A stretch of 64,000 nucleotides of DNA from Actinomycetales bacterium (GCA_047974565.1 JBKECN010000055.1:19839-83838); one strand, 5' to 3'. Counted from the first letter of the stretch, positions 16,485 through 32,220 are shown. Notes: generated by a model not told the origin, from the sequence alone. Made by a program: numbers and translations.

Positions 16485-17399
16485 GTGTACGACATTCCGG
16501 ACCAGCGGGACCGGCGAATCGTGGTGACCGGGGCCAACAGCGGGACCGGCCTGGAGGCCACTCGCCGCCTGGCGCGCGCCGGTGCCCAGATCGTGATGGC
16601 GGTGCGCAGCCTGGACAAGGGCGAGGCGGCTTGCGAGCGGATCCGCCGGGAGATTCCCGGGGCCAGGCTCGAGGTGCGGCGTCTCGACTTGGCCGATCTG
16701 ACTCAGGTGCGGGACTTCTGCGAGGCGCTGGCGCGGGTGGGTGAACCCGTGCACGCGCTGGTCAACAACGCCGGGGTGATGGCTCCGCCGGACCGGATGA
16801 TCACCCGCGACGGTCACGAACTGCAATGGGCGACGAACTTCCTCGGCCCGTTCGCGCTCACCAACCTGCTTCTGCCGGTATTGCTGGCGGCCGATCGTCC
16901 GCGGGTGGTGACCATGTCCAGTTCGGCCGCTGCGCTCGGCCGGATCGATTTCGGCGACCTGGACGCCGAGCGGCGGTACGGCGGGGCCCGCGCATACGCC
17001 CAGTCCAAGCTGGCGGATCTGCTCCTGGCGCTCCGGTTGGCCAGGGTCGCGCACGAGCGCGGCTGGCCCCTGCTCAGCCTGGCCGCCCACCCGGGTTACA
17101 CCCGCACGAACCTGCAGCAGACCGGTCCCCGCCTTGGGCGGGGCCGGGCGACGATCGCCACGCGACTGCTCGATGTGGGCTGGCGGGGACAGGACGTGCG
17201 GGTCGGGGCCGAACCCCTGCTCTACGCGATCGCAGACCCTGGCGCGGTCAACGGGGGCTACTACGGACCCAGCGGTCGGTGGGAGCTGACCGGGCCGACG
17301 GCCAGGGTGCGACCGCCCCGCAGCGCCAACGCTCCCAGCTTGGCCGACTCCCTGTGGGCGGTGGCCGCCGACCTGACCGGAACCGACCTTCCGGCCTGA
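16485..17399 (+). CDS. short-chain dehydrogenase/reductase (SDR) family oxidoreductase
   Basis: The ORF is 16290-17399. The GTG at 16485 has GGGAGG 5 nt upstream. Rossmann motif VVTGANSGTGLE and catalytic YAQSKLA are present. The upstream part of the ORF has low GC3 and contains the 13-mer repeats. Confidence 0.85.
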   Translation: MYDIPDQRDRRIVVTGANSGTGLEATRRLARAGAQIVMAVRSLDKGEAACERIRREIPGARLEVRRLDLADLTQVRDFCEALARVGEPVHALVNNAGVMAPPDRMITRDGHELQWATNFLGPFALTNLLLPVLLAADRPRVVTMSSSAAALGRIDFGDLDAERRYGGARAYAQSKLADLLLALRLARVAHERGWPLLSLAAHPGYTRTNLQQTGPRLGRGRATIATRLLDVGWRGQDVRVGAEPLLYAIADPGAVNGGYYGPSGRWELTGPTARVRPPRSANAPSLADSLWAVAADLTGTDLPA

Positions 17400-17428
17400 C
17401 GACCCGGGCCGGGCCCAGGAGTCTGCGT

Positions 17429-17460
17429 TCACGCGTATCAGGTTTCACGGGTATCAGGTC
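17429..17460. promoter_or_regulatory. two abutting 16-bp direct repeats TCACGCGTATCAGGTT / TCACGGGTATCAGGTC upstream of the flavin reductase gene
   Basis: 14/16 identical, perfectly tandem, 49 nt upstream of the GTG at 17509. A third GTTCAC half-site occurs at about 17481. Confidence 0.4.
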
Positions 17461-17508
17461 CGGCCAGACCCTCTCTTCCCGTTCACATTTGTTCGGGGGG
17501 AGCAGGCC

Positions 17509-18186
17509 GTGGCCAGAGCATCAGGGGTACCCGGATCGCGGCTCGGGGCGCGATGTGCCCGAGCCGACGCAGCGGACACCGTCTCGTCCCTTCCCCGGCC
17601 CGTGTGCCTGCTCGCCGTCTCCAGCCTGTCTGGCCCGCACCTGGTGACGGTGACCTCGGTCAGCGTGGCCGCGGTGGACCCGGTGCTGGTGACCGTCGCG
17701 CTCGGCTCGCAGAGCCGGATGAACGGCCTCATCGCAGCCACGGGAGCCTTCGCGCTGGGTGTGCTCGCCGCTGAACAACGGGAGCTGGCCGAACGCTTCG
17801 CCCGGCCGGGACGCGCGCCGGACCTGGCGCAACTGGACGGCCTGCGCTGGCACTCGACCCCGTACTCGAACTCACCCCTGCCTCAGGCCCTCGTTGCCTG
17901 GCTGGACTGCGAACTGGTCGCCCGCAACGCGGCACCCGGCGTATCGGTGATCGTCGGCCAGGCCCGAGCGGTGAGCGGGGCCGGCCGGGGAACGGGGCGG
18001 CCGCTGCTACGGCTGCGCGGGGAGTATCTGCCGGCATCGGCTCCCGTCCGCTCGTCGAACCACCCGCAGCGTCGTGACTCGACGACGCCGGGCCTGCACG
18101 TGGTCACCGGCGGTGCCGGCGACCGAGACAACCGTTGGAGGGAGGTGAAAAGCCATGAAGAAGATCAGCGTGCGCAAGGTCGGTGA
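17509..18186 (+). CDS. flavin reductase-like (FMN-binding split-barrel) protein with a low-complexity C-terminal tail
   Basis: 225-aa ORF. The core (LVTVTSVSVAAVDPVLVTVALG...AFALGVLAAEQRELAERFARPG...) resembles NAD(P)H-flavin reductase domains. The last ~55 aa look non-domain and overlap the small ORF at 18155. Confidence 0.6.
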   Translation: MARASGVPGSRLGARCARADAADTVSSLPRPVCLLAVSSLSGPHLVTVTSVSVAAVDPVLVTVALGSQSRMNGLIAATGAFALGVLAAEQRELAERFARPGRAPDLAQLDGLRWHSTPYSNSPLPQALVAWLDCELVARNAAPGVSVIVGQARAVSGAGRGTGRPLLRLRGEYLPASAPVRSSNHPQRRDSTTPGLHVVTGGAGDRDNRWREVKSHEEDQRAQGR

Positions 18187-18259
18187 GGTGCGCCTCACCG
18201 CCCGGGCCTGTTACTGCTACTGCTGCTGTTGCTGCGCAGGAAGCGTGCTGGCCCCGTGA
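18155..18259 (+). CDS. 34-aa poly-cysteine small ORF: candidate RiPP/metallophore precursor peptide (or Cys-sensing leader peptide)
   Basis: ATG at 18155 is preceded by GGAGGGAGGTGA (18137-18148). It translates to MKKISVRKVGEVRLTARACYCYCCCCCAGSVLAP with stop TGA at 18257-18259. 28 of 33 sense codons end in G/C, like real genes here. It is absent from the ORF track only because it is shorter than 60 aa. Confidence 0.65.
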   Translation: MKKISVRKVGEVRLTARACYCYCCCCCAGSVLAP

Positions 18260-18265
18260 CCCCTC

Positions 18266-18298
18266 GGGTGGCGGCGGGCCGACTTGCCGCCGCCACCC
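18266..18298 (+). terminator. perfect 12-bp GC stem-loop (GGGTGGCGGCGG-N9-CCGCCGCCACCC) 7 nt after the small ORF stop
   Basis: Read directly from the sequence. There is no U-tract, so it would be a partial terminator, processing/stabilising hairpin, or attenuator element. Confidence 0.55.
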
Positions 18299-18324
18299 TC
18301 CAGCACTCCTGGAAGGCACCGCAG

Positions 18325-19596
18325 ATGGACTCCTCGTTGAGATTTCACCCGCTCACCTACCTCCACGACGGCGACGACGTGGTCGTCGGACGGCGGGACG
18401 TGGATGTCTACGTCGCGCTCCCACCCGAAGGCGCCGAACTGCTGCGCCGACTCGAGGGCGGTACTCGTCCGGAGGTGGCCGCGCAGTGGTTCATCCAGAC
18501 CTACGGGGAGAGCGTCGACATGGTCGACTTCATCGAGGCCATGACCGACGCCGGTTTCGTCGTGGGCGACTCGCAGGGTCACCCGGAGAACGGCTCGGTC
18601 CTGGTTGCCGGGACTGGCTCGGCCCGGCAGGCAGGTGCCGCCGGCGACCCCGCCGTGGTACCGCAGGTGCGCTGGCGTCGACTGGCCTCGGCGCTGTTCA
18701 GCACCCCCGCCTGGATCGGGTACGGGGCACTGGTGATCGCAGCGGTGCTGGCCTGCATCGACTCGCCCTCGCTCATACCGGACCACTCGGATGTCTTCTT
18801 CGTGCCATCGCTGGTGGCCATCGAGGTGATCCTGATGGTCCTGACGATTCCGTTGACGTTGGTACACGAGCTCTCTCACGTCCTGGCCGGTCGCCGGCTC
18901 GGGCTGCGCAGCCGAGTCCGGCTGGCAAACCGCTTCTACTTCCTGGTCTTCGAGACGGTCATGGACGGCCTGGTGAGCGTGCCGCGCCGGCAGCGATACC
19001 TTCCGATGCTTGCCGGGCTGCTGGCCGACATCCTCGTGCTGGCCGGTTTGATCTGCCTGGCCTGGCTGTTGCGTGGCCCGGCCCAGACCCTGCCCGGGGC
19101 CGCGCTGGGGTCCGGCCTGGCCCTGGCGCTGGCCTTCACCACGTTGCCCAGGATGGCCTGGCAGGGGTACTTCTTCCTTCGCACGGACGGCTACTACCTG
19201 GTGGCCACGGTCACCGGTTGCCAGAACCTGCACGAGGCGGCCTGGTGGCGGGTCCGTGGCTGGGCGTCGAGGCACACCGGCAGGCGCATCCCGCCCCCCG
19301 ATGCGCGCTCAGATCAATTCAGTGCCAGGGACCTTCAGGTATCGCGCTGGTATGCCCCGCTGCTGCTCGGCGGCTACCTGCTCGCGCTCATCACCCTGTT
19401 CGTCGTCGTCCTGCCGCTCGCCTGGACCTTCTTCTCCCTGGCGTTCACCCGGGTCGGTGCCGGGCCGTCCGCAGGATCGGCCGGCTTCGTCGATGCCGCC
19501 GTGGTGCTGGCCATCACCGCCGGTCAGCTCCTGGCGGCCGGGGTGCTGGCATTGCGGGGCCGGCGCCGGCGAGACAGGGCCGGGACCAACGGCTGA
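18325..19596 (+). CDS. fusion protein: N-terminal PqqD/RRE-like peptide-binding domain plus multi-pass membrane HExxH metalloprotease (M50/YydH-like)
   Basis: The ORF is 18229-19596. The ATG at 18325 has GGAAGG 8 nt upstream. Residues ~5-80 (VYVALPPEGAELLRRLEGGTRPEVAAQWFIQTYGESVDMVDFIEAMTDAGFV) look PqqD-like. HELSH is at nt 18865-18879 inside a TM helix, with several further TM segments and an FFLRTDGYY motif. Confidence 0.7.
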   Translation: MDSSLRFHPLTYLHDGDDVVVGRRDVDVYVALPPEGAELLRRLEGGTRPEVAAQWFIQTYGESVDMVDFIEAMTDAGFVVGDSQGHPENGSVLVAGTGSARQAGAAGDPAVVPQVRWRRLASALFSTPAWIGYGALVIAAVLACIDSPSLIPDHSDVFFVPSLVAIEVILMVLTIPLTLVHELSHVLAGRRLGLRSRVRLANRFYFLVFETVMDGLVSVPRRQRYLPMLAGLLADILVLAGLICLAWLLRGPAQTLPGAALGSGLALALAFTTLPRMAWQGYFFLRTDGYYLVATVTGCQNLHEAAWWRVRGWASRHTGRRIPPPDARSDQFSARDLQVSRWYAPLLLGGYLLALITLFVVVLPLAWTFFSLAFTRVGAGPSAGSAGFVDAAVVLAITAGQLLAAGVLALRGRRRRDRAGTNG

Positions 19597-19758
19597 GCGC
19601 AGCGATCGGCGTCCTCGGCTTCAGGCAGCAGATCCCGGTCGACGCGGCCACGGATCCGGGAGTGCCCGTTCCACGAGGAAACGTCAACGACTCCAGGGCA
19701 ACCGGTTTCACACCCGAGAACAAAAACTGACAGTCAATCACCAAGAAGGAGAACGATT

Positions 19759-21606
19759 GTGTCAACTCTCACCGTCACCGCGCACCGCAACGATCATGGC
19801 CCCTTCACCGCCCCGGGCAACATCCTGCGGGCGCTGCGCGTCGACCTGCTGCGCGATCACCGTGACCTCCTCCAGGCGCACGATGTCGAGGTGCTTTCGG
19901 CGGCTCCGGAGTACGCGGCCGACCTGGCCAACCTGCGCCCGACGCAGACCTCGTCGATCGATCCCCGAGCGCGGACCCGCTACTACCCGCCCGCGTGGAT
20001 CACCCGGATCTGCCACGGCCTGGTCGATCTCATGCTGGTGCTGGCCGAGCGTGGCGTCCTGCGGACGATCGAGTTCACCCACCTGGCGAACGCGGACCCG
20101 TCCGACACCGAGTTCGTCGCCGTCCTCGCTCGTCGCAGCGCGGGACGGATCCTGGTGCGCGAGGTAGCCGCGCAGGACCCGCCGCCGGCACCGGATCTGG
20201 CCACCTACTACGTTGAAACAGACTGTGTCAGTGACGATCCCGAGGTGTTGTCGGCCTACGTCGAGCTTGAGGAGGCCGTCCGACAGGCCCTGCACGGCAA
20301 GCGGATGCGCCAGATCCGCGAGGCCATCGCCGGGGGATGCACCAGCCTGCGTCGGTGGACCCTGGCCATGCATGCCGAGCGGTCTGGCGACCCGCAGCAG
20401 GCGGTGAGCGCTCTGACCGAGGCGATTGAGGCGTGTGTTCTCGAGGGGTTCTACGACGCCGTCGTCGAGCTGGGGAGCAGGCTCCTGCCGCTCCTGGATC
20501 CGGCGAGCCAGCCGGATGAGCGGTGGCTGGTGATCGCCAAGGTGACTCTGGCGCAAAGTGCCCTGGGTCGCCTGGAGGACGCCGAGGCCGCCTATGACGA
20601 GGCGTGCGCCGCCACCACGCACCCCAGCACGCACCTGCAGAGCTACTACGGGCGAGCCATGCTGCTGACCCGCTTCGCCGAGCCGAGCGAGCGCGACCAT
20701 CGCCGCGCCGAAGCCCTGGTCAACACGGCGATCACCATCGCCTCGTTGCTGCCGGACGACGCACGTCGTGAGTTCAACACGACCTTCAACGAGAACGGGC
20801 TCGCCCTGGTCGAGATGCACCTGGGGAATCTGCACGAGTCGCTGCGCCTGGTGGAGACCGGCATCGCCCGGCTGGACCAGGCCACCGAGCATGACCGGGA
20901 CCTCCAGCATCGATGGGTTCTGGAGCACAACCGAGCCCAACTGCTCACCGCACTGGCCCGCCCGCACGAGGCTCTGGAGTGCTATGCCGAGCTGCTCCAG
21001 GTGGATCCGCACCACAGCGAGTATCACCTCGACCATGCCGGGGTGCTTCGGGCCGTGGGCCGGCTGGAGGAGGCCGAAAGCGAACTGGGCGAGGCGATCC
21101 GGTGCAGTCCGCCATACCCGGAGGCGGTGTACAACCGCGCCGATCTACGTGCCTCCTGCGGCGACCTGGCGGGAGCTGTGGCCGATCTTCGCCGAGTGCT
21201 CGAGCTCGACCCGGCCTTCCCGAATGCCTGCGCCAACCTCGCCGGCCTGCTCCTGGAAGAGGGTCAGGCGCGTCTCGCCCGGGAGGTGGCTGCGAACGGA
21301 TTGCGGGCGGACCCGGCGGACGTCGCATTGCGCACCGTGTTGGCCCAGGCCGAGCATGAACTCGGCGATCTCGACGCGGCAGTGAGCGGATACCGCGCAG
21401 CCCTCGAGATCGACCCGCACTTCGTGCCGGCACTGGCCGGACGAGCTGTCGCGGCCTTCGAGGTCGGCACCGCAGACAGCCTGCACACGGCCGTGGAGTG
21501 TCTGGAGCGAGCGGTCAGGCTCAGCGACGACCCCGACCTGGTCGAGAACCTGGCTCTGGCCGTATCCCGTCAGGAGGTCCTGGGTAAGACCGCCTCGGGA
21601 GACTGA
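19759..21606 (+). CDS. TPR-repeat protein with an uncharacterised ~190-aa N-terminal domain
   Basis: 615-aa ORF. The GTG at 19759 has AAGGAG 7 nt upstream. The C-terminal ~400 aa are tandem TPR-like helices (for example AEAAYDEA, LEEAESELGEAIRCSPPYPEAVYNRADL, YRAALEIDPHFVPAL). Confidence 0.75.
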   Translation: MSTLTVTAHRNDHGPFTAPGNILRALRVDLLRDHRDLLQAHDVEVLSAAPEYAADLANLRPTQTSSIDPRARTRYYPPAWITRICHGLVDLMLVLAERGVLRTIEFTHLANADPSDTEFVAVLARRSAGRILVREVAAQDPPPAPDLATYYVETDCVSDDPEVLSAYVELEEAVRQALHGKRMRQIREAIAGGCTSLRRWTLAMHAERSGDPQQAVSALTEAIEACVLEGFYDAVVELGSRLLPLLDPASQPDERWLVIAKVTLAQSALGRLEDAEAAYDEACAATTHPSTHLQSYYGRAMLLTRFAEPSERDHRRAEALVNTAITIASLLPDDARREFNTTFNENGLALVEMHLGNLHESLRLVETGIARLDQATEHDRDLQHRWVLEHNRAQLLTALARPHEALECYAELLQVDPHHSEYHLDHAGVLRAVGRLEEAESELGEAIRCSPPYPEAVYNRADLRASCGDLAGAVADLRRVLELDPAFPNACANLAGLLLEEGQARLAREVAANGLRADPADVALRTVLAQAEHELGDLDAAVSGYRAALEIDPHFVPALAGRAVAAFEVGTADSLHTAVECLERAVRLSDDPDLVENLALAVSRQEVLGKTASGD

Positions 21607-21624
21607 GGCGAGGCAGGGCGGGGA

Positions 21625-21655
21625 TTACGAGACACGCCTGGGGTGTGTCTCGTAA
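21625..21655. terminator. 14-bp stem hairpin (TTACGAGACACGCC-TGG-GGTGTGTCTCGTAA) 19 nt after the TPR gene stop
   Basis: 13 Watson-Crick pairs plus 1 G-U pair, with a 3-nt loop. The left arm is repeated at 21787-21800. Confidence 0.6.
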
Positions 21656-21800
21656 GGCAAGCCCGTCGCGAGCAGGCTCTGGCGGAGTGGGCGGCAAGGC
21701 GGACGAGCGAGGGCGTGGCAGAGCCACGTCGAGTCGAGGACAACGCCGCCGGACGCCCGCCAGGGTCCTGCGCAGCAGGGGCGGGATTACGAGACACGCC

Positions 21801-22463
21801 CTAGTCCAGCGGCCGCAACTCGTCGGCGTAGGAGACCGACACCCGGCGCAGCATGCCGCTGGGGCTCACGGCGTACTGGCCCATCCGCCACAGCGGGGGC
21901 GAGTAGGCGTGAATCGACACCGAGTTCGGCTCCAGGCCGGTGAGCCGGTGAATGTGCTCGGGGCCGAAGGAGAAGACCTGCCCGGCCTCCACCCGGGTGG
22001 CGAGTTCCGGTTGCCCGATGGCCAGGTTGTGCTCGATCAGGGCGCCCTCGGCGACGGCCACCGCGCCGGAGGAGATGTCGTGGTCGTGCCAGCCGGTGTC
22101 GTTGGCCGGAGTCCAGCAGAGCACCCACACGTCGATGTGGGAGTCGCGGTACAGGCTCACGTAGTGGCGGTGGTCATCGGTGTAGTCGACGTACTGGTGC
22201 CACAGCTCGGGCCGGGCCGCCACACTCGCGGCCAGCACCCGCAACTCCTGCGAATCCAGGTCGGTGCCGGTAACCGCCTCGAATCCGGCGAAGTCCGGAT
22301 CGTCCGCGTCGGAGAGCGGCTCGGCTCGCTGCGCCGGCACTCCCACGGTGGATGGCCCGGCAACCAGTTGGGCGGCCTCCTCCAACGGGATGGGCTCGGG
22401 GGCCGGTGCCAGCTCCGGTAGAGCCGGGGCGATGGCAGGGTGCGAGGTGAGGCCGTCTGTCAC
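21801..22463 (-). CDS. cysteine dioxygenase type I-like (thiol dioxygenase, cupin) protein
   Basis: The ORF is 21801-22640. The GTG at 22463 has AAAGGAG 7 nt upstream and overlaps the upstream stop (GTGA). Cupin core: DVWVLCWTPANDTGWHDHDISSGAVAV...GPEHIHRL. Confidence 0.75.
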   Translation of the reverse strand: MTDGLTSHPAIAPALPELAPAPEPIPLEEAAQLVAGPSTVGVPAQRAEPLSDADDPDFAGFEAVTGTDLDSQELRVLAASVAARPELWHQYVDYTDDHRHYVSLYRDSHIDVWVLCWTPANDTGWHDHDISSGAVAVAEGALIEHNLAIGQPELATRVEAGQVFSFGPEHIHRLTGLEPNSVSIHAYSPPLWRMGQYAVSPSGMLRRVSVSYADELRPLD

Positions 22464-23629
22464 GGCGAGACTCCTTTCGGTTGTGCCGAGGCCGGCGGGG
22501 CCTGGGTCGGCGTGCGGTCCCCGGGGAGCGGGTCCGGCGGGTGGCCGAGGGCTCGATGGCCCTCGGGGTGGGCAAGGTGGACGGGGTATGCAGTCACGTC
22601 CGTCGTGGATGCCGTACGACCGTCCTGGTGGGTGGGCCATCCGGGACGAAACCCGGCATCCGGCCGGGTGGCGACCGGTGCGCCACGACGGTGGCCGGGC
22701 ACGTGGGGATGAGGCAGAGCGTGCCCTCCCAGCAGCCGGCGAGGGTTGGTGACGCTGATCGCGTGCCAGGCTGCCTCGCCCAGGTGCGGATCCACCGGGT
22801 GGGCGTAGGGCCGGTCGCTGCCCAGCACCACCGTGTCGATGCCGAGGGCCCGCACCAAGGCATCCACGCCCTGCCGGCGATAGGACGAGGTCTCCACGAA
22901 AACCAGGGGATCGACCACGAAGGGTTGTCCGCTGCGTACCGCGAAGCGCTCGTGGTGGGCCGGTGCCAGCCCGGCTCCGGCCGCGAAACAGATTCGTAAC
23001 TCAGGCAGTTCGACCCGGCCTGCGGCTCGGAAGGCCCACCAGGCGGCCTGCATCTGGGTGGGGTAGTCGACCATCGCGGGCCACCACGAGGGCACCGCCG
23101 GGGCTCGGTGCTCCGGGGTTCGGTGTGCCGGCCCGGGGTGGACCAGCACCGGGCGTCCGAGTTCCTCGCAGAGGGCGAGGGTGGCGAGCACTCCGGTGAG
23201 CGCCGCCGGGTCGCGCATCCAGGTGGCCGAGATCTGCAGCCCGACCACCTCTGGACGCTGCAGCCGGTCACGAAGGGCATCGAGGTCTGGCTCGAGGTGG
23301 GTGGTGGCGGCCCAGTAGCCGTAGCGATGGGCTGCGTCGGCGACGCCGCCGTGCCAGGCGTCGAGCAACTCGGCGGCCTCCTCCGGCGGCAGTTCCTCGA
23401 TGCCCAACGGCGTCGACAGCGAGAGCAGGATCAGGTCGATGTCCGGGTCCAGGCGAGACCTGACCGCCGGGTCGTGATCGGTGGGCCTGATCTCGAAGGG
23501 AGCTTCGTACTCGGTGTGCAGGGTCCAGCCGTCCAACCGCGGTGGGCGGTTCCGGCGTCGCAGGGCGTCGATGAGCGCCTCGGGCCACAGATGTTGATGG
23601 ACGTCCACCCGCAGCACTGACCGCTGCAT
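22460..23629 (-). CDS. amidohydrolase-2 (ACMSD-like metal-dependent hydrolase/decarboxylase) family protein with an odd ~90-aa C-terminal tail
   Basis: The ORF is 22460-23791. The ATG at 23629 has GGGAGGTGAGG upstream. The N-terminal motif VDVHQHLWP is typical of the family. The tail after ...NPRRLLGG is Pro/His/Arg-rich with lower GC3. Confidence 0.75.
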   Translation of the reverse strand: MQRSVLRVDVHQHLWPEALIDALRRRNRPPRLDGWTLHTEYEAPFEIRPTDHDPAVRSRLDPDIDLILLSLSTPLGIEELPPEEAAELLDAWHGGVADAAHRYGYWAATTHLEPDLDALRDRLQRPEVVGLQISATWMRDPAALTGVLATLALCEELGRPVLVHPGPAHRTPEHRAPAVPSWWPAMVDYPTQMQAAWWAFRAAGRVELPELRICFAAGAGLAPAHHERFAVRSGQPFVVDPLVFVETSSYRRQGVDALVRALGIDTVVLGSDRPYAHPVDPHLGEAAWHAISVTNPRRLLGGHALPHPHVPGHRRGAPVATRPDAGFRPGWPTHQDGRTASTTDVTAYPVHLAHPEGHRALGHPPDPLPGDRTPTQAPPASAQPKGVSP

Positions 23630-23680: not shown

Positions 23681-23736
23681 TGGTGCGTCCGGTGGACGCG
23701 GTGTTGCTTGGTGCGTCCGGTGGACGCGGTGCTGCT
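23681..23736. promoter_or_regulatory. two tandem 28-bp repeats, each containing the palindrome GCGTCC-GGT-GGACGC
   Basis: TGGTGCGTCCGGTGGACGCGGTGTTGCT at 23681-23708 and TGGTGCGTCCGGTGGACGCGGTGCTGCT at 23709-23736 (27/28 identical). They lie 52-107 nt upstream of the amidohydrolase start. Confidence 0.5.
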
Positions 23737-24196: not shown

Positions 24197-25210
24197 GTGG
24201 CTCAACCACGCCGCGTGACTCTGCGCGACATCTCCGCCGACACCGGACTCTCGGTGGCGGCGGTTTCGTACGCGCTGCGTGGGCTGCACGTCCCCGAGGA
24301 GACGCAGATTCGCGTCCGCGAGTCTGCTGAGCGACTCGGCTACAAGGTCAACCCGATCGCCCGCGCCTTGGCATCCGGCCGCTCCGACCAGGTGGGGGTG
24401 ATGTGTCGCTCCCTGGCGGATCTGTGGCAGCAGGGTACCTCCGCCAGGCTTGGCCGGGCACTGCTGGCCACCGGTCGGCAGGCTCTCATCGTCGACTCCT
24501 GTGACGATCCCGATCTGGAGGAAAGACTGGCTCGCCGGCTGCTCGACCAGCGGGTCGACGCCCTGCTCACCTTCCCGGTGAATCCGGCGGCCGAGCACTG
24601 GGCGCAGGCCGCGCAGGAGACCGTGTTGGTCTCCATCGGGGATGCCCTGCCCGGCGCGGCCACGTATGCCGAGATCGTCTTCGACAATCAGCGAGCGGTT
24701 CGCTCGGCCCTCGACGGTCTGGTCGGTCTTGGACATTCGCGAATCGCGGTGCTCACCCACATCGACAACTCGACTCCGGACCGGCCGATCGAACTCGTCG
24801 TGCAGCAGATGGCCGAGGATTCGCACGCCGATATTCGGCTGCACACCTGCATGAGCGACCTCGAAGGGTCGGCCACCGTGGTCACGCGGCTTCTTCAGGG
24901 CGCGGACCCCCCTACCGCTTTCTGCTGTCTGGCGGACTCGATGGCCTACGGCGTCTACTCGGCCGCCCGGGCCCTGGGCCTGTCCATCCCCGAGGACATC
25001 TCCGTGGTTGGCAACGACGACAACCCGATCTCGACGCTGCTCACGCCCCCGCTGTGGAGCTACGAGTGGCCTGTCTCGGAGGTGGTGAGCGCGATCGTCG
25101 ACGCCACCACCGAGGGCGTGGTGGACGAGATCCGCCGGGGCCGTACGGTGATCTCGGCCCGCGAGCATCGCCGAGCATCGGCGGCCGCGCCCCCCGGCGC
25201 GGATTCCTGA
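24197..25210 (+). CDS. LacI-family transcriptional regulator
   Basis: 337-aa ORF with an N-terminal HTH (VTLRDISADTGLSVAAVSYALRG) and a periplasmic-binding-protein-like effector domain. Confidence 0.9.
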   Translation: MAQPRRVTLRDISADTGLSVAAVSYALRGLHVPEETQIRVRESAERLGYKVNPIARALASGRSDQVGVMCRSLADLWQQGTSARLGRALLATGRQALIVDSCDDPDLEERLARRLLDQRVDALLTFPVNPAAEHWAQAAQETVLVSIGDALPGAATYAEIVFDNQRAVRSALDGLVGLGHSRIAVLTHIDNSTPDRPIELVVQQMAEDSHADIRLHTCMSDLEGSATVVTRLLQGADPPTAFCCLADSMAYGVYSAARALGLSIPEDISVVGNDDNPISTLLTPPLWSYEWPVSEVVSAIVDATTEGVVDEIRRGRTVISAREHRRASAAAPPGADS

Positions 25211-28096: not shown

Positions 28097-29602
28097 TCAG
28101 TCGCCCAGTTCGGTCCGGCGCCGGTCGACGAACTCTTGCAACTCGCGTTCCACCTCTGGATCCAGGGCGGGCTGCGCGTACTCCTGGAGGGTGGCTCGCC
28201 AGATTTCACCCGCGCGCGCCTGGGTGTCGCGGGCGCCCTTGGACGTCCACCGCTCGAAGTTCTCCGTCGAGCTGAGCATCGGCCGGTAGAAGCAGTCCCG
28301 GAACCGTTCCAGCGTGTGCATGCAGCCGAGGAAATGCCCGCCGTGTCGCACCTCGTCGTGTGCGTCGAAGGCCAGGGCCTCGTCGTCGATCACCAGGGGT
28401 GTGTACTGCTGGCGCAGGGTGCGCAGCAACTCCACGTCCATGACGAGTTTCTCCGGGCAGGACACCAGTCCGGACTCCAGCCACCCCGCCGATTGGACGA
28501 TGAGGTTGGCCCCCGCACCGAAGGCGGCGTTGAGGGTGTTGAAGGCCTCGTAACCGGCTTGGGCGTCCACCGTCTGGCTGGCGGTCAGGCCGCCCCCGCC
28601 GGCTCGCCAGGGCAGAGCGTAGCGACGCGCCAGCTGGCCCGAGGCGAGCAAGCCGGCGGCCGATTCGGGCCCGCCGAAACTCGGTGAGCCGGACTGCATG
28701 TCGATGGTCGACAGGAACGAGCCCATCACCGCAGGGGTCCCCGGGCGCAGCGCCTGCATCAGGGCGATCCCGGTCAGTGCCTCAGCACTCTGCTGGGCCA
28801 GCGCCGAGGCGACCGTCACCGGTGACATCGCGCCCATCAGCAGGAAGGGGGTGACGACCACCGCCTGCCCGGCCTTTGCATAGGCGAGCATGGCCTCGAG
28901 CATGCGGGTGTCGAAGCGCAGTGGGGAGTTCGCGTTGGCGATGGTGATGATCGAACACATCGGCCTGTCGTGTCCGCTCGCCCCCGCCGGCCGGAACACC
29001 CCGGCCCCCGGTCCGTCCGACTCGAAGCCGGTGTTATCGCTGCGGGAGAACAAGATTCGAGCCATCTCGATGGAGTCGTCGGAGTTGACGTCCGAGAGTG
29101 CCGATCCGAACACCACCTTGTCGGTCAGGCTCATCGCGGCCAGGATCATGTCCAGGTGACGAGAGTCCAACGGCCTGTCGTTCGGTTCGATGATCGGCAT
29201 CGTGCTGGCGTCGAGTTCGGGGAAGGCCTGGACCAGTTTGGCCATCAGCCGGTAGTCCTCGAGAGTGCCGTCCCGGCGTTCGTCACCGATCCGGAAGAAC
29301 GGTGGCCCTGACACCGGGGTGCACACCACGTGACGTCCGCCGAGGGTGATGTCGTGCTCCGGGTTCCGAGCCCGGACGTCGAACTCGCTCGGAGCCAGGC
29401 GTACCTGCTCGAGTACCCAGTCGGGGTCGAAGTGAACGACCTCGCCTTCCACTCGTTGCCCCGCGTCGGCCAGCACGCTCAGTGCCTCGGGGTGCATGAA
29501 CTCCACCCCGATCTCACTCACCAGGCGCTTCCAGCCGCGCTCGATGGTGTCCAGCGACTCGGGGGAGAGGGGCTCCTGGGGGGCCATCTGGTGTCGAAAC
29601 AC
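28097..29602 (-). CDS. MttB-superfamily (trimethylamine methyltransferase-like, non-pyrrolysine) quaternary-amine methyltransferase
   Basis: 501-aa ORF with no in-frame internal stop. Family-level resemblance throughout (N-terminal LSPESLDTIERGWKRLVSEIGVEF...). Confidence 0.8.
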   Translation of the reverse strand: MFRHQMAPQEPLSPESLDTIERGWKRLVSEIGVEFMHPEALSVLADAGQRVEGEVVHFDPDWVLEQVRLAPSEFDVRARNPEHDITLGGRHVVCTPVSGPPFFRIGDERRDGTLEDYRLMAKLVQAFPELDASTMPIIEPNDRPLDSRHLDMILAAMSLTDKVVFGSALSDVNSDDSIEMARILFSRSDNTGFESDGPGAGVFRPAGASGHDRPMCSIITIANANSPLRFDTRMLEAMLAYAKAGQAVVVTPFLLMGAMSPVTVASALAQQSAEALTGIALMQALRPGTPAVMGSFLSTIDMQSGSPSFGGPESAAGLLASGQLARRYALPWRAGGGGLTASQTVDAQAGYEAFNTLNAAFGAGANLIVQSAGWLESGLVSCPEKLVMDVELLRTLRQQYTPLVIDDEALAFDAHDEVRHGGHFLGCMHTLERFRDCFYRPMLSSTENFERWTSKGARDTQARAGEIWRATLQEYAQPALDPEVERELQEFVDRRRTELGD

Positions 29603-29727
29603 GATGTCTCCTGGTGCGTTTGGGTGGGGACGAAGGTTCGCCCCGGTGTTCGGGTACCTCCCGGGACTTCACGTGCTCCAGGGAGTGCTCCGACTGCCCG
29701 GGTGGGCAACCGGATGGATGGGACCGG

Positions 29728-32220
29728 TCAGGCCCGTGGACGAAGCCCTTGCGGGTCGACGGGGCTTGGCGCGATCACCCGGGCAGGCCGGCGCCGGCCG
29801 ACCACGTGGATTTCGACCTCGGTGCCGACCTCGGCGTGTGCCCGGTCGACATAGCCCAGCGCCAGGCTCGCTCCGACGCAGTGGCCGTATCCACCGGAGG
29901 TGACGTAGCCGATCCGATGGTCCCCGACCCACACGGGATCGAAGACGGAGGCGTCGGCGTCCTCGGCAGACACCTCGAAGGTGACCAGACGCTGATCCGA
30001 GCCTTCCGTCCCGCCTTCCCGCCGGTCTGCCGAGTCTCGTTCTGCCAGTGCGGCATCGCGTCCGACGAAGGTGGACTTGTCGTAGTCCACGAATCGGTCC
30101 AGACCACACTGGAGGGGGGTGTGACCTTGGGTGAACTCGTGGTTCCAGATGCCATAGGACTTCTCCAATCGCAGACTGTCCAGGGCTGCATACCCGATCG
30201 GGACGGCACCCAGCGGTGCGCCGGCCTGACGCAACGCCCGGTAGAGCCCCGGGAGTTCACCGGCGGGAAGGTTGAGTTCATAGCCGAGTTCGCCGGTCAC
30301 GCTCATCCGCACCGCCCGGACCCGGTTGAGGCCGAGGTCGAGTTCGCCGGCCGACATGAAGCTCAGATCCACCGGATCGCAGGCGATCGCGGTGAGCAGC
30401 TCCGTGCTGCCGGGCCCGCACACCGCCACCCCGGCCACCGCGTCGCTGAGGTCGCGGATCGTGACGCTGCCATCACCGGGAAGATGGTCGGCGAACCAGC
30501 GAAGGTGCCAGGAACGCAGGTAGTACGAACCGACTACCCAGAACTCGTCCTCGCTCCAGCAGGTCGTGGTGAGGTCGCCCATCAGGCGGCCTCCGGCGCC
30601 GAGCATCGGGGTGAGCCGCACCCGCCCCTGCGTCGGCAGCCGACCCGCCAGCATCCGGTCCAGCCAGTCCCGAGCCCCCGGGCCGCTGACCTGGTAGCGG
30701 GCGAAGGAGGTGATGTCGAGCAGGCCCACCCCCTCGCGGGTGGCCCGGCATTCGGCGCCCACGATCTCGAAGGCGTTGCTCCGGCGCAGGGTGAGGTTCT
30801 CGGTGAAATCCGGCTGGTCGGGGGTGAAGTACAGCGGCGTCTCCAACCCCCAGGTGACGCCGAAGTGGGCGCCCTCGCCGGCCAGCGTCTCGTGCAAGGC
30901 GGAGGTGCGCAGGTTGCGTCCGGCCGGCAACTGCTCGTTGGGGTAGGTGAGTTCGAAACGCTTGGCGTAGAACTGCCCGGTGGTGGCGGTGAGGTAGCCG
31001 TCCGCGCAGGCGTAGGGCCCGTAGCGGGCCACGTCCATGCCCAGCACGTCCCGAGCGGGTTCACCTTCGACCATCCACTCGGCCAGCGCCAGCCCGACGC
31101 CGCCGCCCTGGCTGAACCCGGCCATCACCCCGCACGCGGCCCAGTAGTTGGTCAGCCCCGGCACCGGGCCGATCAGCGGGTTGCCGTCGGGGGTGAAGGT
31201 GAAGGCGCCGTTCACCCAGGTCTTGATCCCGGCGGTCTCCAGGCATGGGTAGCGGGCCAGACCGACTGCCAGTTCGGGCTCGATCCGGTCCAGGTCCGGG
31301 CGCAGCAGGGTCATCCCGAAGTCCCACGGAGCGCCCTCGACGTGCCAGTGCTGCGGTCGGCGTTCGTACACCCCGAGCAGCAGGCCGGGGCCTTCCTGGC
31401 GTAGGTAGGTGAAGCCGTCCAGGTCCATCATCATCGGCAGTTCGCCGTGCTGGGCGGTGTGGGCGACGACTTCGTCGAGTTCCTCGGTGATCAGGTAGTG
31501 GTGCTCCATCGGCACCACCGGCAGGTCCACGCCAGCCATCCGGGCCAGCCGACGAGCCCACAGCCCGCCGGCGTTCACGACGTGTTCGGCCGTGATCTCG
31601 CCCTGCTCGGTGCCCAGCCGCCAGCCTTGGGGGGTCTGGGTCAGGCTGAGAACCGCGTTGTGCAGGACGATCTCGACTCCCCGCTGCCGGGCAGCGGCGG
31701 CGTAGGCATGGGTGGTGCCCGAGGCGTCCAGGTGCCCCTCGTACGGGTCGTACATCGCGCCGTGGATTCCGGTGACGTCGACAATCGGGCTGAGCGAGGC
31801 GACCTCGTCGGGGTCGATCAGCCGCACGGCCTGATTGCCGATGGTCTGCAGTACGGCCCACTGGGCCTGCACCTGCTCCCAGCGTTCGGCGCTGGCGGCC
31901 AGGTTCAGCCCGCCGGTGATGTGCAGGCCGCAGGAGCGGCCGGTCTCGGCCTCCAACTCGGAGTACAGGTCGATGGTGTACTTCTGCAGGGCGGCCACGT
32001 TGGGATCCCCGTTGAGGGTGTGGAAGCCGGCCGCGGCGTGCCAGGTGGAGCCGGCGGTCAGCTCGGATCGTTCGATCAGCAGCACGTCGGTCCACCCGAG
32101 TTTGGCCAGGTGATACGCCACACTCACCCCGACCACTCCTCCGCCGATCACGACGGCCCGGTAGTTGTTCTGCTGCAATGGATCTCCTGGTGTACTGGGT
32201 GGAAGTGCCCGCAGGTCCAC
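29728..32220 (-). CDS. dimethylglycine/sarcosine dehydrogenase-like protein (FAD DAO domain fused to GcvT folate-binding aminomethyltransferase domain)
   Basis: 830-aa ORF with the FAD fingerprint AVVIGGGVVGVSVAYHLAK. The C-terminal half is GcvT-like. Confidence 0.85.
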   Translation of the reverse strand: MDLRALPPSTPGDPLQQNNYRAVVIGGGVVGVSVAYHLAKLGWTDVLLIERSELTAGSTWHAAAGFHTLNGDPNVAALQKYTIDLYSELEAETGRSCGLHITGGLNLAASAERWEQVQAQWAVLQTIGNQAVRLIDPDEVASLSPIVDVTGIHGAMYDPYEGHLDASGTTHAYAAAARQRGVEIVLHNAVLSLTQTPQGWRLGTEQGEITAEHVVNAGGLWARRLARMAGVDLPVVPMEHHYLITEELDEVVAHTAQHGELPMMMDLDGFTYLRQEGPGLLLGVYERRPQHWHVEGAPWDFGMTLLRPDLDRIEPELAVGLARYPCLETAGIKTWVNGAFTFTPDGNPLIGPVPGLTNYWAACGVMAGFSQGGGVGLALAEWMVEGEPARDVLGMDVARYGPYACADGYLTATTGQFYAKRFELTYPNEQLPAGRNLRTSALHETLAGEGAHFGVTWGLETPLYFTPDQPDFTENLTLRRSNAFEIVGAECRATREGVGLLDITSFARYQVSGPGARDWLDRMLAGRLPTQGRVRLTPMLGAGGRLMGDLTTTCWSEDEFWVVGSYYLRSWHLRWFADHLPGDGSVTIRDLSDAVAGVAVCGPGSTELLTAIACDPVDLSFMSAGELDLGLNRVRAVRMSVTGELGYELNLPAGELPGLYRALRQAGAPLGAVPIGYAALDSLRLEKSYGIWNHEFTQGHTPLQCGLDRFVDYDKSTFVGRDAALAERDSADRREGGTEGSDQRLVTFEVSAEDADASVFDPVWVGDHRIGYVTSGGYGHCVGASLALGYVDRAHAEVGTEVEIHVVGRRRPARVIAPSPVDPQGLRPRA

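What the first reader, a model, noticed from the sequence alone, without database searches (positions are those of the whole stretch)
16485..23629. Cluster-level view: poly-Cys peptide locus flanked only by redox/thiol enzymes, with no canonical RiPP maturase
On the + strand the order is SDR, flavin reductase, poly-Cys ORF, PqqD-protease, TPR protein. Convergent on the - strand is a translationally coupled amidohydrolase-2 / cysteine-dioxygenase-like pair (GTGA overlap at 22460-22463). Within 7 kb of the peptide gene there is no radical SAM, YcaO, LanB/C/M, MNIO, or ABC exporter. A thiol dioxygenase next to a 7-Cys peptide raises the possibility of peptide-Cys oxidation (sulfinate formation). 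The SDR and flavin reductase could supply redox tailoring. This block interrupts an otherwise coherent betaine uptake/catabolism region, and carries its own operator-like repeats at both ends (17429-17460 and 23681-23736). Functional linkage of the flanking enzymes is speculative.
Basis: inference. Interest (0 to 1): 0.7.

Follow-up and report, generated by a model that had tools for sequence, protein, structure and literature searches.

The report
Cys/Tyr peptide, leader-guided membrane protease, TPR partner
The seven-cysteine mini-gene is real and belongs to a widespread, unstudied actinobacterial three-gene unit (small peptide, leader-recognising membrane protease, TPR protein, often with a flavin reductase). 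The neighbouring cysteine-dioxygenase, amidohydrolase and SDR genes never travel with it.

Summary
The described genes, domains, GTGA overlap and repeats are all present. Comparison with 97 related loci splits the 7-kb "cluster".

The conserved unit has three parts:
- A 25-40 aa precursor. Its leader is almost invariant (MKKIxVRKxGxVRLT[A/S]) and its 10-27 aa core is hypervariable. The core always has at least one Cys and nearly always a Tyr. Poly-Cys cores are a minority (26 of 79).
- A six-TM HExxH membrane protein with an N-terminal RRE/PqqD-like domain.
- A cytoplasmic protein of about 600-700 aa with a degenerate AAA_16 N-domain and a TPR superhelix.

A PF01613 flavin reductase abuts this trio in about 40% of loci with enough flanking sequence, in three different arrangements, so it is a genuine accessory.

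No known RiPP maturase accompanies the trio anywhere. The closest known part is the daptide leader peptidase MpaP (an RRE fused to an intramembrane protease). The precursor, partners and chemistry are not those of daptides.

The most likely mechanism is that the RRE docks the leader and the cytoplasm-facing zinc site cuts leader from core. The roles of the TPR protein and the flavin reductase, and the product's function, remain inferred. I found no description of this family in the held literature. At least 645 clusters at 50% identity exist.

The parts
17428..17459 (.). Tandem 16-nt direct repeat, TTCACG[C/G]GTATCAGGT x2. It lies in the 109-nt gap between the SDR stop and the flavin-reductase start. 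Candidate operator or promoter element of the cassette operon.
   Evidence: 2 matches against 0.02 expected. The regulatory role is inferred.
17509..18186 (+). Flavin reductase-like protein (PF01613). Accessory member of the cassette. Its 3' end overlaps the peptide start by 32 nt.
   Evidence: 76 bits; homologues abut the trio in 32 of 97 loci, in three arrangements.
18155..18259 (+). Precursor peptide, 34 aa. The leader is MKKISVRKVGEVRLTA(R); the core is ACYCYCCCCCAGSVLAP (7 Cys, 2 Tyr).
   Evidence: GGAGG ribosome-binding site; 79 unique homologues lie upstream of the protease gene; 9 synonymous and 0 nonsynonymous codon differences against L002 over 27 codons.
18325..18564 (+). N-terminal RRE (PqqD-like winged helix), residues 1-80 of the membrane protein. 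Predicted leader-binding domain.
   Evidence: three strands and three helices, pLDDT 80-97; best PDB matches are TbiB1 and TfuB1 leader complexes and the RREs of ThcOx, TigE, SkfB and CteB. PqqD E 0.009.
18325..19596 (+). RRE-HExxH intramembrane metalloprotease-like protein, 423 aa, six TM helices, N and C termini inside. HELSH (residues 181-185, nt 18865-18879) sits at the cytoplasmic end of TM2.
   Evidence: H181, E182, H185, E210, D235 and D288 are invariant in 30 sequences; topology. NF041824 daptide_HExxH E 1e-4. M50 E 0.15; family size.
19759..21606 (+). Cytoplasmic partner protein, 615 aa. A small alpha/beta N-domain derived from AAA_16 (P-loop lost) is followed by a long TPR superhelix. 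It has its own AAGGAG ribosome-binding site.
   Evidence: always directly downstream of the protease gene wherever the contig extends that far; pLDDT 95. AAA_16 in 12 of 20 homologue N-domains; degenerate Walker A; ribosome-binding site.
21616..21664 (+). Strong hairpin 10 nt after the TPR stop codon. Likely the operon terminator, and it folds on both strands.
   Evidence: -33.6 kcal/mol, z -5.7. On the reverse strand -26.8 kcal/mol, z -5.4.

Best explanation
The functional unit is not the 7-kb block. It is a four-gene operon: flavin reductase, precursor, protease, TPR protein (17509-21606). This operon is one instance of a widespread, uncharacterised, mainly actinobacterial peptide-processing cassette.

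Proposed mechanism:
1. The 34-aa precursor is translated in the cytoplasm.
2. Its nearly invariant leader (MKKIxVRKxGxVRLT[A/S]) is captured by the N-terminal RRE of the six-TM membrane protein, as a strand added to the RRE sheet.
3. This places the small-residue linker between the leader and the conserved Tyr at the HExxH zinc site. That site sits at the cytoplasmic end of TM2. It cuts leader from core, as proposed for the daptide peptidase MpaP.
4. The cytoplasmic pseudo-STAND/TPR protein is an obligatory partner. It probably binds an invariant ligand, either the leader or the protease itself, and gates or scaffolds the cleavage.
5. The flavin reductase is a dispensable redox accessory acting on, or protecting, the Cys (or Tyr) of the core.
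6. The released product is a short Tyr/Cys peptide. In this window it is an extreme 7-Cys variant that could additionally chelate soft metals.

What is shown:
- The gene is real and under purifying selection.
- The trio is strictly conserved.
- The N-terminal domain has an RRE fold.
- HExxH and several acidic residues are invariant.
- The active site faces the cytoplasm.
- The flavin reductase is linked to the trio; CDO, amidohydrolase and SDR are not.

What is inferred: proteolysis itself, the cleavage site, the roles of the TPR protein and flavin reductase, and the fate and function of the product.
For: Synteny:
- The protease and TPR genes are adjacent in every locus whose contig extends far enough.
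- Together with the window there are 92 precursor copies, 79 of them unique. No precursor was found in L007, L029, L035, L036, L038, L065, L072, L073 and L086. These have only 7-606 nt before the protease match.
- Some loci carry 2-3 precursor copies, for example L027 and L039.
- Outside the trio only the flavin reductase recurs widely. A cluster of BTAD/TPR-type regulator-like ORFs recurs in 7 loci. Immediate neighbours in loci without a flavin reductase are heterogeneous.

Coding:
- Strong ribosome-binding site.
- Synonymous changes greatly exceed nonsynonymous ones.

Protease:
- RRE fold.
- PqqD match below threshold.
- Invariant H181, E182, H185, E210, D235 and D288.
- Basic cytoplasmic loops place HExxH at the inner face.
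- Weak but specific similarity to the daptide RRE-protease. Its architecture and proposed role are described in PMC10028931.

Partner coupling:
- The protease and TPR genes overlap by 4 nt in L015.
- A called protein (P0112) joins the protease to the AAA_16 region.

Operon limits:
- Repeat upstream.
- Hairpin downstream.

Family size: 645 cluster representatives at 50% identity with E <= 1e-30 and 1161 with E <= 1e-10.
Against: - No proteolysis, product or phenotype has been observed; the mechanism is entirely in silico.
- The membrane domain does not reach the Pfam M50 threshold (11.8 bits against 27.2). It has no solved structural relative by Foldseek or by sequence. It could therefore catalyse something other than hydrolysis.
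- If proteolysis is the only step, the near-invariance of Tyr and Cys in an otherwise hypervariable core is left unexplained. That pattern hints at chemistry that no identified enzyme accounts for.
- No exporter is conserved, so the product's destination is unknown.
- The flavin reductase is absent next to about 60% of the cassettes with enough flank.
Confidence: 0.55

Rival explanations
1. A new RiPP class with a non-canonical maturase. The TPR/pseudo-AAA_16 protein, the split-barrel flavoprotein, or the HExxH membrane domain itself modifies the conserved Tyr and Cys before or during leader removal. Possible modifications are a Tyr-Cys link, thiol oxidation or dehydrogenation.
For: - All 79 unique cores have at least one Cys and 77 have at least one Tyr. 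The first Tyr lies 4-8 residues after RLT, while the rest of the core is hypervariable.
- An RRE, a conserved leader and multi-copy precursors are RiPP hallmarks.
- The flavoprotein keeps its adjacency through gene-order changes.
- A distant relative is fused to PqqD+ThiF (P0376). This suggests that these proteases serve modification pathways.
Against: - The Tyr-Cys spacing and order vary (YC, CY, YxxxC, CxxY), which is awkward for a single cross-linking enzyme.
- The TPR protein matches only TPR scaffolds. Its NTPase remnant has lost Walker A.
- The flavin reductase is missing beside most cassettes.
- PF01613 proteins have no known peptide-modifying member (my own knowledge).
Confidence: 0.22
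2. A peptide-signalling or regulatory module. The processed peptide, or the released leader, is the ligand of the STAND-like TPR sensor. This would be analogous to RRNPP pheromone systems, whose propeptides are cut by the site-2 protease Eep.
For: - The partner has the STAND layout: an AAA_16-derived N-domain followed by a TPR sensor.
- All components face the cytoplasm and no exporter is conserved.
- The variable core with a conserved leader resembles pheromone specificity divergence.
- The RRNPP/Eep analogy is from my own knowledge.
Against: - The TPR protein has no HTH, kinase, phosphatase or other output domain.
- The P-loop is lost.
- The precursor has no secretion signal.
- No Opp-type importer is linked.
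Confidence: 0.15
3. The block is a 7-kb redox/thiol tailoring cluster. The CDO-like enzyme oxidises peptide cysteines to sulfinates, and the amidohydrolase, SDR and flavin reductase contribute further tailoring.
For: - Physical proximity in this one genome.
- The CDO_I and Amidohydro_2 domain assignments are correct.
Against: - CDO and amidohydrolase occur in 0 of 97 related loci. An SDR occurs in 1 of 97, about 7 kb away.
- The closest relatives with almost the same peptide (L001, L002) lack all three.
- The pair is a separate convergent operon behind a strong hairpin, with its own unrelated upstream repeats.
Confidence: 0.03
4. A metallothionein-like metal buffer. The poly-Cys peptide binds Cu(I), Zn or Cd. 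The flavin reductase acts as a metal or disulfide reductase.
For: - This window's core has 7 Cys in 10 residues.
- 26 of 79 cores have at least 4 Cys.
- Among the flavin reductase's weak NCBIfam hits is the flavin reductase FerA.
Against: - 35 of 79 cores have a single Cys, so metal clustering cannot be the function of the family.
- Metallothioneins need neither a leader nor an RRE-protease.
- No metal-resistance genes are linked.
Confidence: 0.05

Closest known systems
Daptide biosynthesis, leader peptidase MpaP/DapP (NCBIfam NF041824; Ren et al. 2023, PMC10028931)
   Same: - An N-terminal RRE is fused to an intramembrane HExxH ('site-2-type') protease.
- It is encoded next to short precursors with a conserved leader, mostly in Actinomycetota.
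- Some loci have multiple precursor copies.
   Different: - Sequence similarity is marginal: 21 bits against an equivalog cut-off of 300.
- The daptide leader motif ELExMEAP, the aliphatic core and the invariant C-terminal Thr are absent.
- No PLP aminotransferase, alcohol dehydrogenase, methyltransferase, DUF-RRE protein or ABC transporter is present.
- The TPR/pseudo-AAA_16 partner and the Tyr/Cys core are not part of daptide clusters.
Lasso-peptide B1 proteins / PqqD-type RREs (TbiB1 5V1U, TfuB1 6JX3)
   Same: - The N-terminal 80 residues have the same three-strand, three-helix fold (TM 0.67-0.71).
- Binding of the leader as an added strand is presumed.
- The leader has a Thr near its end, as lasso leaders do (my own knowledge).
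   Different: - There is no B2 cysteine protease and no C cyclase.
- The core has no Asp or Glu for ring closure.
- The RRE is fused to a membrane metalloprotease.
Site-2 proteases (Peptidase M50: RseP, SpoIVFB, Eep, YydH)
   Same: - HExxH lies in a TM helix of a polytopic membrane protein.
- Conserved acidic residues lie in later helices.
- Eep and YydH process small peptides (my own knowledge).
   Different: - The protein does not reach Pfam M50 (E 0.15, HExxH region only).
- No solved M50 structure was retrieved.
- There are no PDZ or CBS domains.
- The substrate is a soluble cytoplasmic peptide recruited by an RRE, not a membrane-spanning segment.
STAND NTPases with TPR sensors (AAA_16/MalT-like, LAL regulators)
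   Same: An AAA_16-derived N-domain is followed by a TPR array.
   Different: - Walker A is degenerate or absent. The window protein lacks even the first strand.
- There is no DNA-binding or other effector domain.
SCIFF/ranthipeptides and other Cys-rich RiPP precursors
   Same: A short precursor with a Cys-dense core.
   Different: - There is no radical SAM maturase here or in any of the 97 related loci.
- Cys density is not conserved in the family.

Membership tests
RiPP biosynthetic cluster (generic) | Short precursor with a conserved leader and a variable core | tested here: met
   79 unique precursors. The leader MKKIxVRKxGxVRLT[AS] is nearly invariant and the cores are hypervariable.
RiPP biosynthetic cluster (generic) | RRE / PqqD-like leader-binding domain | tested here: met
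   The predicted fold matches TbiB1 and TfuB1 (probability 1.0, TM 0.67-0.71). Pfam PqqD is below threshold, 16.8 bits against 23.4.
RiPP biosynthetic cluster (generic) | A post-translational modification enzyme acting on the core | tested here: inconclusive
   No known maturase family occurs in the window or is conserved across the 97 loci. Only a flavin reductase and a TPR protein are linked, and neither is a known maturase.
Daptide | RRE-intramembrane protease of the NF041824 equivalog family | tested here: not met
   21.2 bits against a cut-off of 300. The architecture is shared; family membership is not.
Daptide | [quoted passage not shown] | tested here: not met
   Precursor sequences; criterion from PMC10028931.
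Daptide | Co-occurring PLP aminotransferase, alcohol dehydrogenase, methyltransferase and ABC transporter | tested here: not met
   None in the window block. None recur in the related loci.
Peptidase M50 (site-2 protease) | Pfam PF02163 at the gathering threshold | tested here: not met
   11.8 bits against 27.2; only 22 residues around HExxH align.
Peptidase M50 (site-2 protease) | HExxH in a TM helix plus a conserved Asp in a later TM helix | tested here: met
   H181, E182 and H185 in TM2; D235 in TM3; D288 in TM4. All are invariant in 30 sequences.
Peptidase M50 (site-2 protease) | Proteolytic activity | not testable with these tools
   Needs biochemistry.
STAND / AAA_16 NTPase | AAA_16 domain detectable | tested here: inconclusive
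   12 of 20 homologue N-domains hit at E <= 0.1 (best 1e-6), all below the gathering score. The window protein gives no hit.
STAND / AAA_16 NTPase | Intact Walker A, GxxxxGK[ST] | tested here: not met
   Homologues show remnants such as GPQHRGRE. The window protein starts after that segment.
   0 of 97 loci.
Metallothionein-like peptide | High Cys content conserved across homologues | tested here: not met
   35 of 79 cores have one Cys and 14 have two.
SCIFF / ranthipeptide | Adjacent radical SAM maturase | tested here: not met
   None in the window block. The only radical SAM neighbour seen, in L071, is RlmN-like.
Anti-phage defence systems (PADLOC) | Match to a defence-system protein model | tested here: not met
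   There was only a TPR-region hit, below E 1e-4, to a PrimPol model.

The most novel reading that the evidence does not exclude
The trio may carry function with no described counterpart. Two forms are possible.

(a) A new RiPP class. The conserved Tyr and Cys would be modified by a non-canonical catalyst: the pseudo-STAND/TPR protein, the PF01613 flavoprotein, or the HExxH membrane domain acting as more than a hydrolase.

(b) An actinobacterial intracellular peptide-ligand switch. An RRE-tethered intramembrane protease would generate the ligand for a STAND-derived TPR sensor.

Either would define a new family, with hundreds to about a thousand members at 50% identity clustering, in soil Actinomycetota.
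Probability: 0.35. Interest if true: 0.85.

Novelty: new variant of a known kind. Interest (0 to 1): 0.62.

Why it matters
RRE-guided genome mining has repeatedly opened new RiPP chemistry, with daptides as the precedent for this very protease architecture. This cassette has three features that make it attractive:
- It is compact, at three or four genes.
- It is widespread. It occurs in cultured Micromonospora, Lentzea, Umezawaea, Streptomyces, Dactylosporangium, Stackebrandtia and Actinokineospora.
- No recognisable maturase is linked to it.

The cassette therefore represents one of two things. It may be the minimal leader-dependent peptide-release system. Alternatively it may hide an unrecognised enzyme acting on Tyr and Cys. 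The small size makes heterologous reconstitution straightforward.

For annotation, the result shows that the striking poly-Cys run is a lineage-specific extreme. It is probably driven by TGC/TGT triplet expansion within a Tyr/Cys peptide family. The result also shows that the adjacent thiol dioxygenase is a coincidence.

Tried and rejected
- Foldseek on the TPR model returned only generic TPR superhelices (OGT, APC subunits). It says nothing about the N-domain.
- Profile searches of the PDB with the protease family and with the TPR N-domain found nothing.
- PADLOC gave no defence-system match.
- Rfam gave nothing in the block or in the whole window, and there are no tRNAs.
- The sigma-70 and terminator consensus scans were uninformative for this high-GC DNA.
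- The look-up of P0035 found no record.
- Four literature searches found no paper on this trio. The terms covered RiPP, PqqD, metalloprotease, TPR, site-2 protease, daptide and tetratricopeptide. The 2026 Bacillota 'lpp' RiPP family uses a signal-peptidase-like enzyme and is unrelated.
- I looked for a substitute partner in cassettes lacking the flavin reductase. The immediate neighbours were an ABC membrane protein, Zn-ADH, HD, CSD, DUF4129, RlmN-like, DUF2087, LuxR, FKBP, fumarase and GNAT. There is no pattern.
- Lasso peptide was considered and rejected: there is no acidic ring-closing residue and no B2 or C genes.
- An AIP-like thiolactone was considered and rejected: the distance from Cys to the C-terminus is not conserved, and a metalloprotease forms no acyl-enzyme intermediate.
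- A cofactor precursor like PqqA or MftA was considered. It is judged unlikely because the Tyr-Cys spacing varies and precursor copies differ within a locus.

Full report
**1. What is in the window**

The window is high-GC (about 0.70) actinobacterial DNA. The TPR protein is 100% identical to a protein from an 'Actinomycetales bacterium' MAG (P0121, 85.7-kb contig).

- SDR, 16485-17399: adh_short 83 bits, PRK05854 307 bits.
- PF01613 flavin reductase, 17509-18186.
- A 34-aa ORF, 18155-18259, encoding MKKISVRKVGEVRLTARACYCYCCCCCAGSVLAP. It follows GGAGG.
- A 423-aa HExxH membrane protein, 18325-19596.
- A 615-aa TPR protein, 19759-21606, with its own AAGGAG ribosome-binding site.
- Convergent on the - strand, Amidohydro_2 (22460-23620, 47 bits) and a CDO_I-like cupin (21801-22463, 59 bits). 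They overlap as GTGA at 22463-22460 behind an AAAGGAG site.

The flanks are:
- alpha-glucan genes and an OpuA-type betaine ABC importer upstream;
- LacI, EtfBA, an MttB-family methyltransferase and a DAO+GCV_T dehydrogenase downstream.

The block does sit between betaine uptake genes and betaine catabolic genes.

**2. The repeats**

Both tandem repeats exist and are non-random, but they are unrelated to each other.
- TTCACG[C/G]GTATCAGGT x2 (17428-17459) lies between the SDR stop and the flavin-reductase start. That is upstream of the peptide operon and inside the proposed block.
- The 2 x 28-nt repeat (23681-23736) carries the palindrome GCGTCCGGTGGACGC. It lies upstream of the amidohydrolase/CDO operon, in the gap shared with the divergent LacI gene.

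A strong hairpin (21616-21664, -33.6 kcal/mol, z -5.7) follows the TPR stop codon. The transcription units are therefore:
- the SDR alone;
- flavin reductase, peptide, protease and TPR protein together;
- amidohydrolase and CDO together, convergent.

**3. The decisive test: synteny**

I collected 97 loci encoding relatives of the membrane protein.
- 14 from species-representative genomes.
- 3 from exact-protein look-ups.
- 80 from metagenomes.

The results were as follows.
- The TPR gene lies directly downstream of the protease gene wherever the contig reaches that far. In L015 the two overlap by 4 nt.
- A homologous small ORF lies upstream in 88 of the 97 loci. The nine without one (L007, L029, L035, L036, L038, L065, L072, L073, L086) have only 7-606 nt before the protease match. 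L027 has two copies and L039 has three.
- A flavin reductase homologue lies within 300 bp of the trio in 32 loci. Of the 38 loci with at least 1 kb on each side, 15 have it. It occurs upstream on the same strand, upstream and divergent, or just downstream of the TPR gene. Adjacency that survives rearrangement is good evidence of a functional link.
- CDO and amidohydrolase homologues: 0 of 97. SDR: 1 of 97, about 7 kb away. LacI: 1 of 97.
- The closest relatives, with almost the same peptide (L001, L002), share none of the window's other flanking genes.
- Neighbours in loci without a flavin reductase are heterogeneous.

It is not met for the flavin reductase.

**4. The peptide family**

There are 79 unique precursors.
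- The leader MKKIxVRKxGxVRLT[A/S] is almost invariant.
- The 10-27-residue core is hypervariable. It always contains at least one Cys.
- 77 of 79 cores contain at least one Tyr. The first Tyr lies 4-8 residues after RLT.
- Cys counts per core are: one in 35 cores, two in 14, three in 4, and four or more in 26.
- The window's core, with 7 Cys, is at the extreme.
- The only two cores without Tyr are pure Cys runs (L046, L048).

The gene is under purifying selection. Against L002, the window's ORF has 9 synonymous and 0 nonsynonymous codon differences over the first 27 codons, including TGC/TGT swaps. The Cys run is a TGC/TGT triplet array. Slippage is therefore a plausible source of the length variation (inference).

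**5. The membrane protein**

- An alignment of 30 family members shows H181, E182, H185, E210, D235 and D288 invariant, and C299 nearly so.
- The AlphaFold model is confident (pLDDT 86.9).
- Residues 1-80 form three strands and three helices. The best PDB matches are lasso B1 RREs in complex with their leaders (TbiB1 5V1U, TfuB1 6JX3). Next come the RREs of ThcOx, TigE, SkfB and CteB.
- Pfam PqqD is below threshold (E 0.009). M50 aligns only around HExxH (E 0.15).
- The only NCBIfam hit is the daptide intramembrane metalloprotease: E 1e-4, 21 bits against a cut-off of 300.
- Hydropathy and the positive-inside rule give six TM helices with both termini inside. HExxH sits at the cytoplasmic end of TM2. 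It is followed by a strongly basic cytoplasmic hairpin that carries E210.
- The active site is therefore on the same side of the membrane as the RRE and the precursor.
- The family is large. A full scan of 1.84 billion representatives found 645 with E <= 1e-30 and 1161 with E <= 1e-10. Sources name its members 'hypothetical protein' or, once, 'PqqD family protein'.

**6. The TPR protein**

- The model is very confident (pLDDT 95, pTM 0.92). It shows a small alpha/beta N-domain with three strands, followed by about 450 residues of TPR superhelix.
- Foldseek finds only TPR scaffolds.
- In 12 of 20 homologues the N-domain gives AAA_16 hits below threshold, the best at 1e-6.
- The alignment shows degenerate Walker A remnants such as GPQHRGRE. 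The window protein lacks that segment altogether.
- It is therefore a STAND-derived pseudo-NTPase with a TPR array and no output domain.
- Its most conserved motifs (HLQxxYGRAM, FNENGLAL, MHLG, DPxHxxY, PPYPExxYNR) lie in the TPR part. This suggests an invariant ligand, namely the leader or the protease, rather than the variable core (inference).
- One called protein (P0112) joins the protease to the AAA_16 region.

**7. Mechanism**

The best-supported reading is as follows.
- The precursor's leader is bound by the RRE.
- The small-residue linker after RLT[A/S] is presented to the cytoplasm-facing zinc site and cut. This is what has been proposed for the daptide peptidase MpaP (PMC10028931).
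- The TPR protein is an obligatory partner that gates or scaffolds the reaction.
- The flavin reductase is a redox accessory.

Only the anatomy and the linkage are shown. Cleavage, its position, the partners' roles and the fate of the product are inferred.

Two observations remain unexplained if proteolysis is the only step:
- the near-invariant Tyr and Cys in an otherwise free-running core;
- the absence of any conserved exporter.

These keep open a hidden-maturase model and a ligand/sensor model. A distant family member fused to PqqD+ThiF (P0376) suggests that such proteases can serve modification pathways.

**8. Comparison with what is known**

- It works like the daptide leader-removal step but is not a daptide. 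The leader motif, the C-terminal Thr, the tailoring enzymes and the transporters are all absent. The protease is far below the equivalog threshold.
- It is not a lasso, SCIFF/ranthipeptide, lanthipeptide, YcaO or MNIO system.
- It is not in PADLOC.
- Four full-text searches found no description of this trio.
- I class it as a new variant of a known kind: an RRE-dependent peptide-processing (RiPP-like) cassette.

**9. Verdict**

The peptide, protease and TPR protein are linked, the flavin reductase is an accessory, and there is no canonical maturase. The CDO, amidohydrolase and SDR linkage and the sulfinate idea are refuted.

Noticed in passing
window 21608-21638 and 21770-21800: A 31-nt direct repeat (87% identical) contains GATTACGAGACACGCC. 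The first copy is the left arm of the hairpin after the TPR stop codon. The second is a half-copy that abuts the CDO stop codon. The 16-mer occurs only at these two places in the 64 kb (0.03 expected). It may be a duplicated terminator or the remnant of a small mobile repeat at the junction of the two convergent operons.
   Followed up: partly
window 23681-23736: A 2 x 28-nt tandem repeat. Each unit carries the perfect palindrome GCGTCC-GGT-GGACGC. It lies in the gap between the amidohydrolase/CDO operon and the divergent LacI-family gene (24197-25210). It looks like a duplicated operator for that regulator rather than anything tied to the peptide locus.
   Followed up: partly
window 17428-17490: The 16-nt tandem repeat has the layout TTCAC-n6-CAGGT twice. 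A third TTCAC follows about 40 nt downstream. Direct-repeat half-sites of this kind are typical of OmpR-family response-regulator boxes in actinomycetes (my own knowledge). No regulator gene is linked.
   Followed up: no
P0376, P0384, P0112 (relatives of the membrane protein): Fusion proteins in the wider family. P0376 is PqqD + ThiF (E1-like) + RRE-protease. P0384 is the protease + DUF3105. P0112 is the protease + the AAA_16 start of the TPR partner. The ThiF fusion hints at other RiPP-like pathways that use this protease type. Their genomic contexts could not be looked up.
   Followed up: partly
L039 about 980-1425; L027 5374-5845: Some cassettes carry two or three tandem precursor genes with the same leader and different cores. 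In L039 the cores are ..AAQPLYSGGCGGGALPNTPVLA, ..AALTLYAEGCVIITPL and ..AAQTLYGGGCGPVIV.
   Followed up: partly
L015 801-3900 (Lentzea terrae): A class II lanthipeptide locus (LanM with DUF4135+LANC_like, plus a DUF6229 small gene) and two BTAD/TPR regulator genes lie just upstream of the cassette. This is probably an independent neighbouring cluster.
   Followed up: no
L001 6308-7600: The closest relative's cassette has an almost identical 7-Cys peptide. It is followed directly by an exporter-type ABC membrane-domain gene. This is absent from the window and from most other loci. It is the only hint of a dedicated exporter.
   Followed up: partly
window 28097-32220: An MttB-family methyltransferase scores 247 bits against a TIGR02369 cut-off of 525, so it is likely a non-pyrrolysine betaine-type member. 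A DAO+GCV_T dehydrogenase lies next to EtfBA. Together they form a coherent glycine-betaine/dimethylglycine demethylation set downstream of the block.
   Followed up: partly
window 18155-18186: The flavin-reductase ORF runs 32 nt into the peptide ORF. It has an unconserved C-terminal tail of about 50 aa. In L002-L004 the reductase stops 8-10 nt before the peptide start. The tail may be a lineage-specific extension or a frameshift in the MAG.
   Followed up: no
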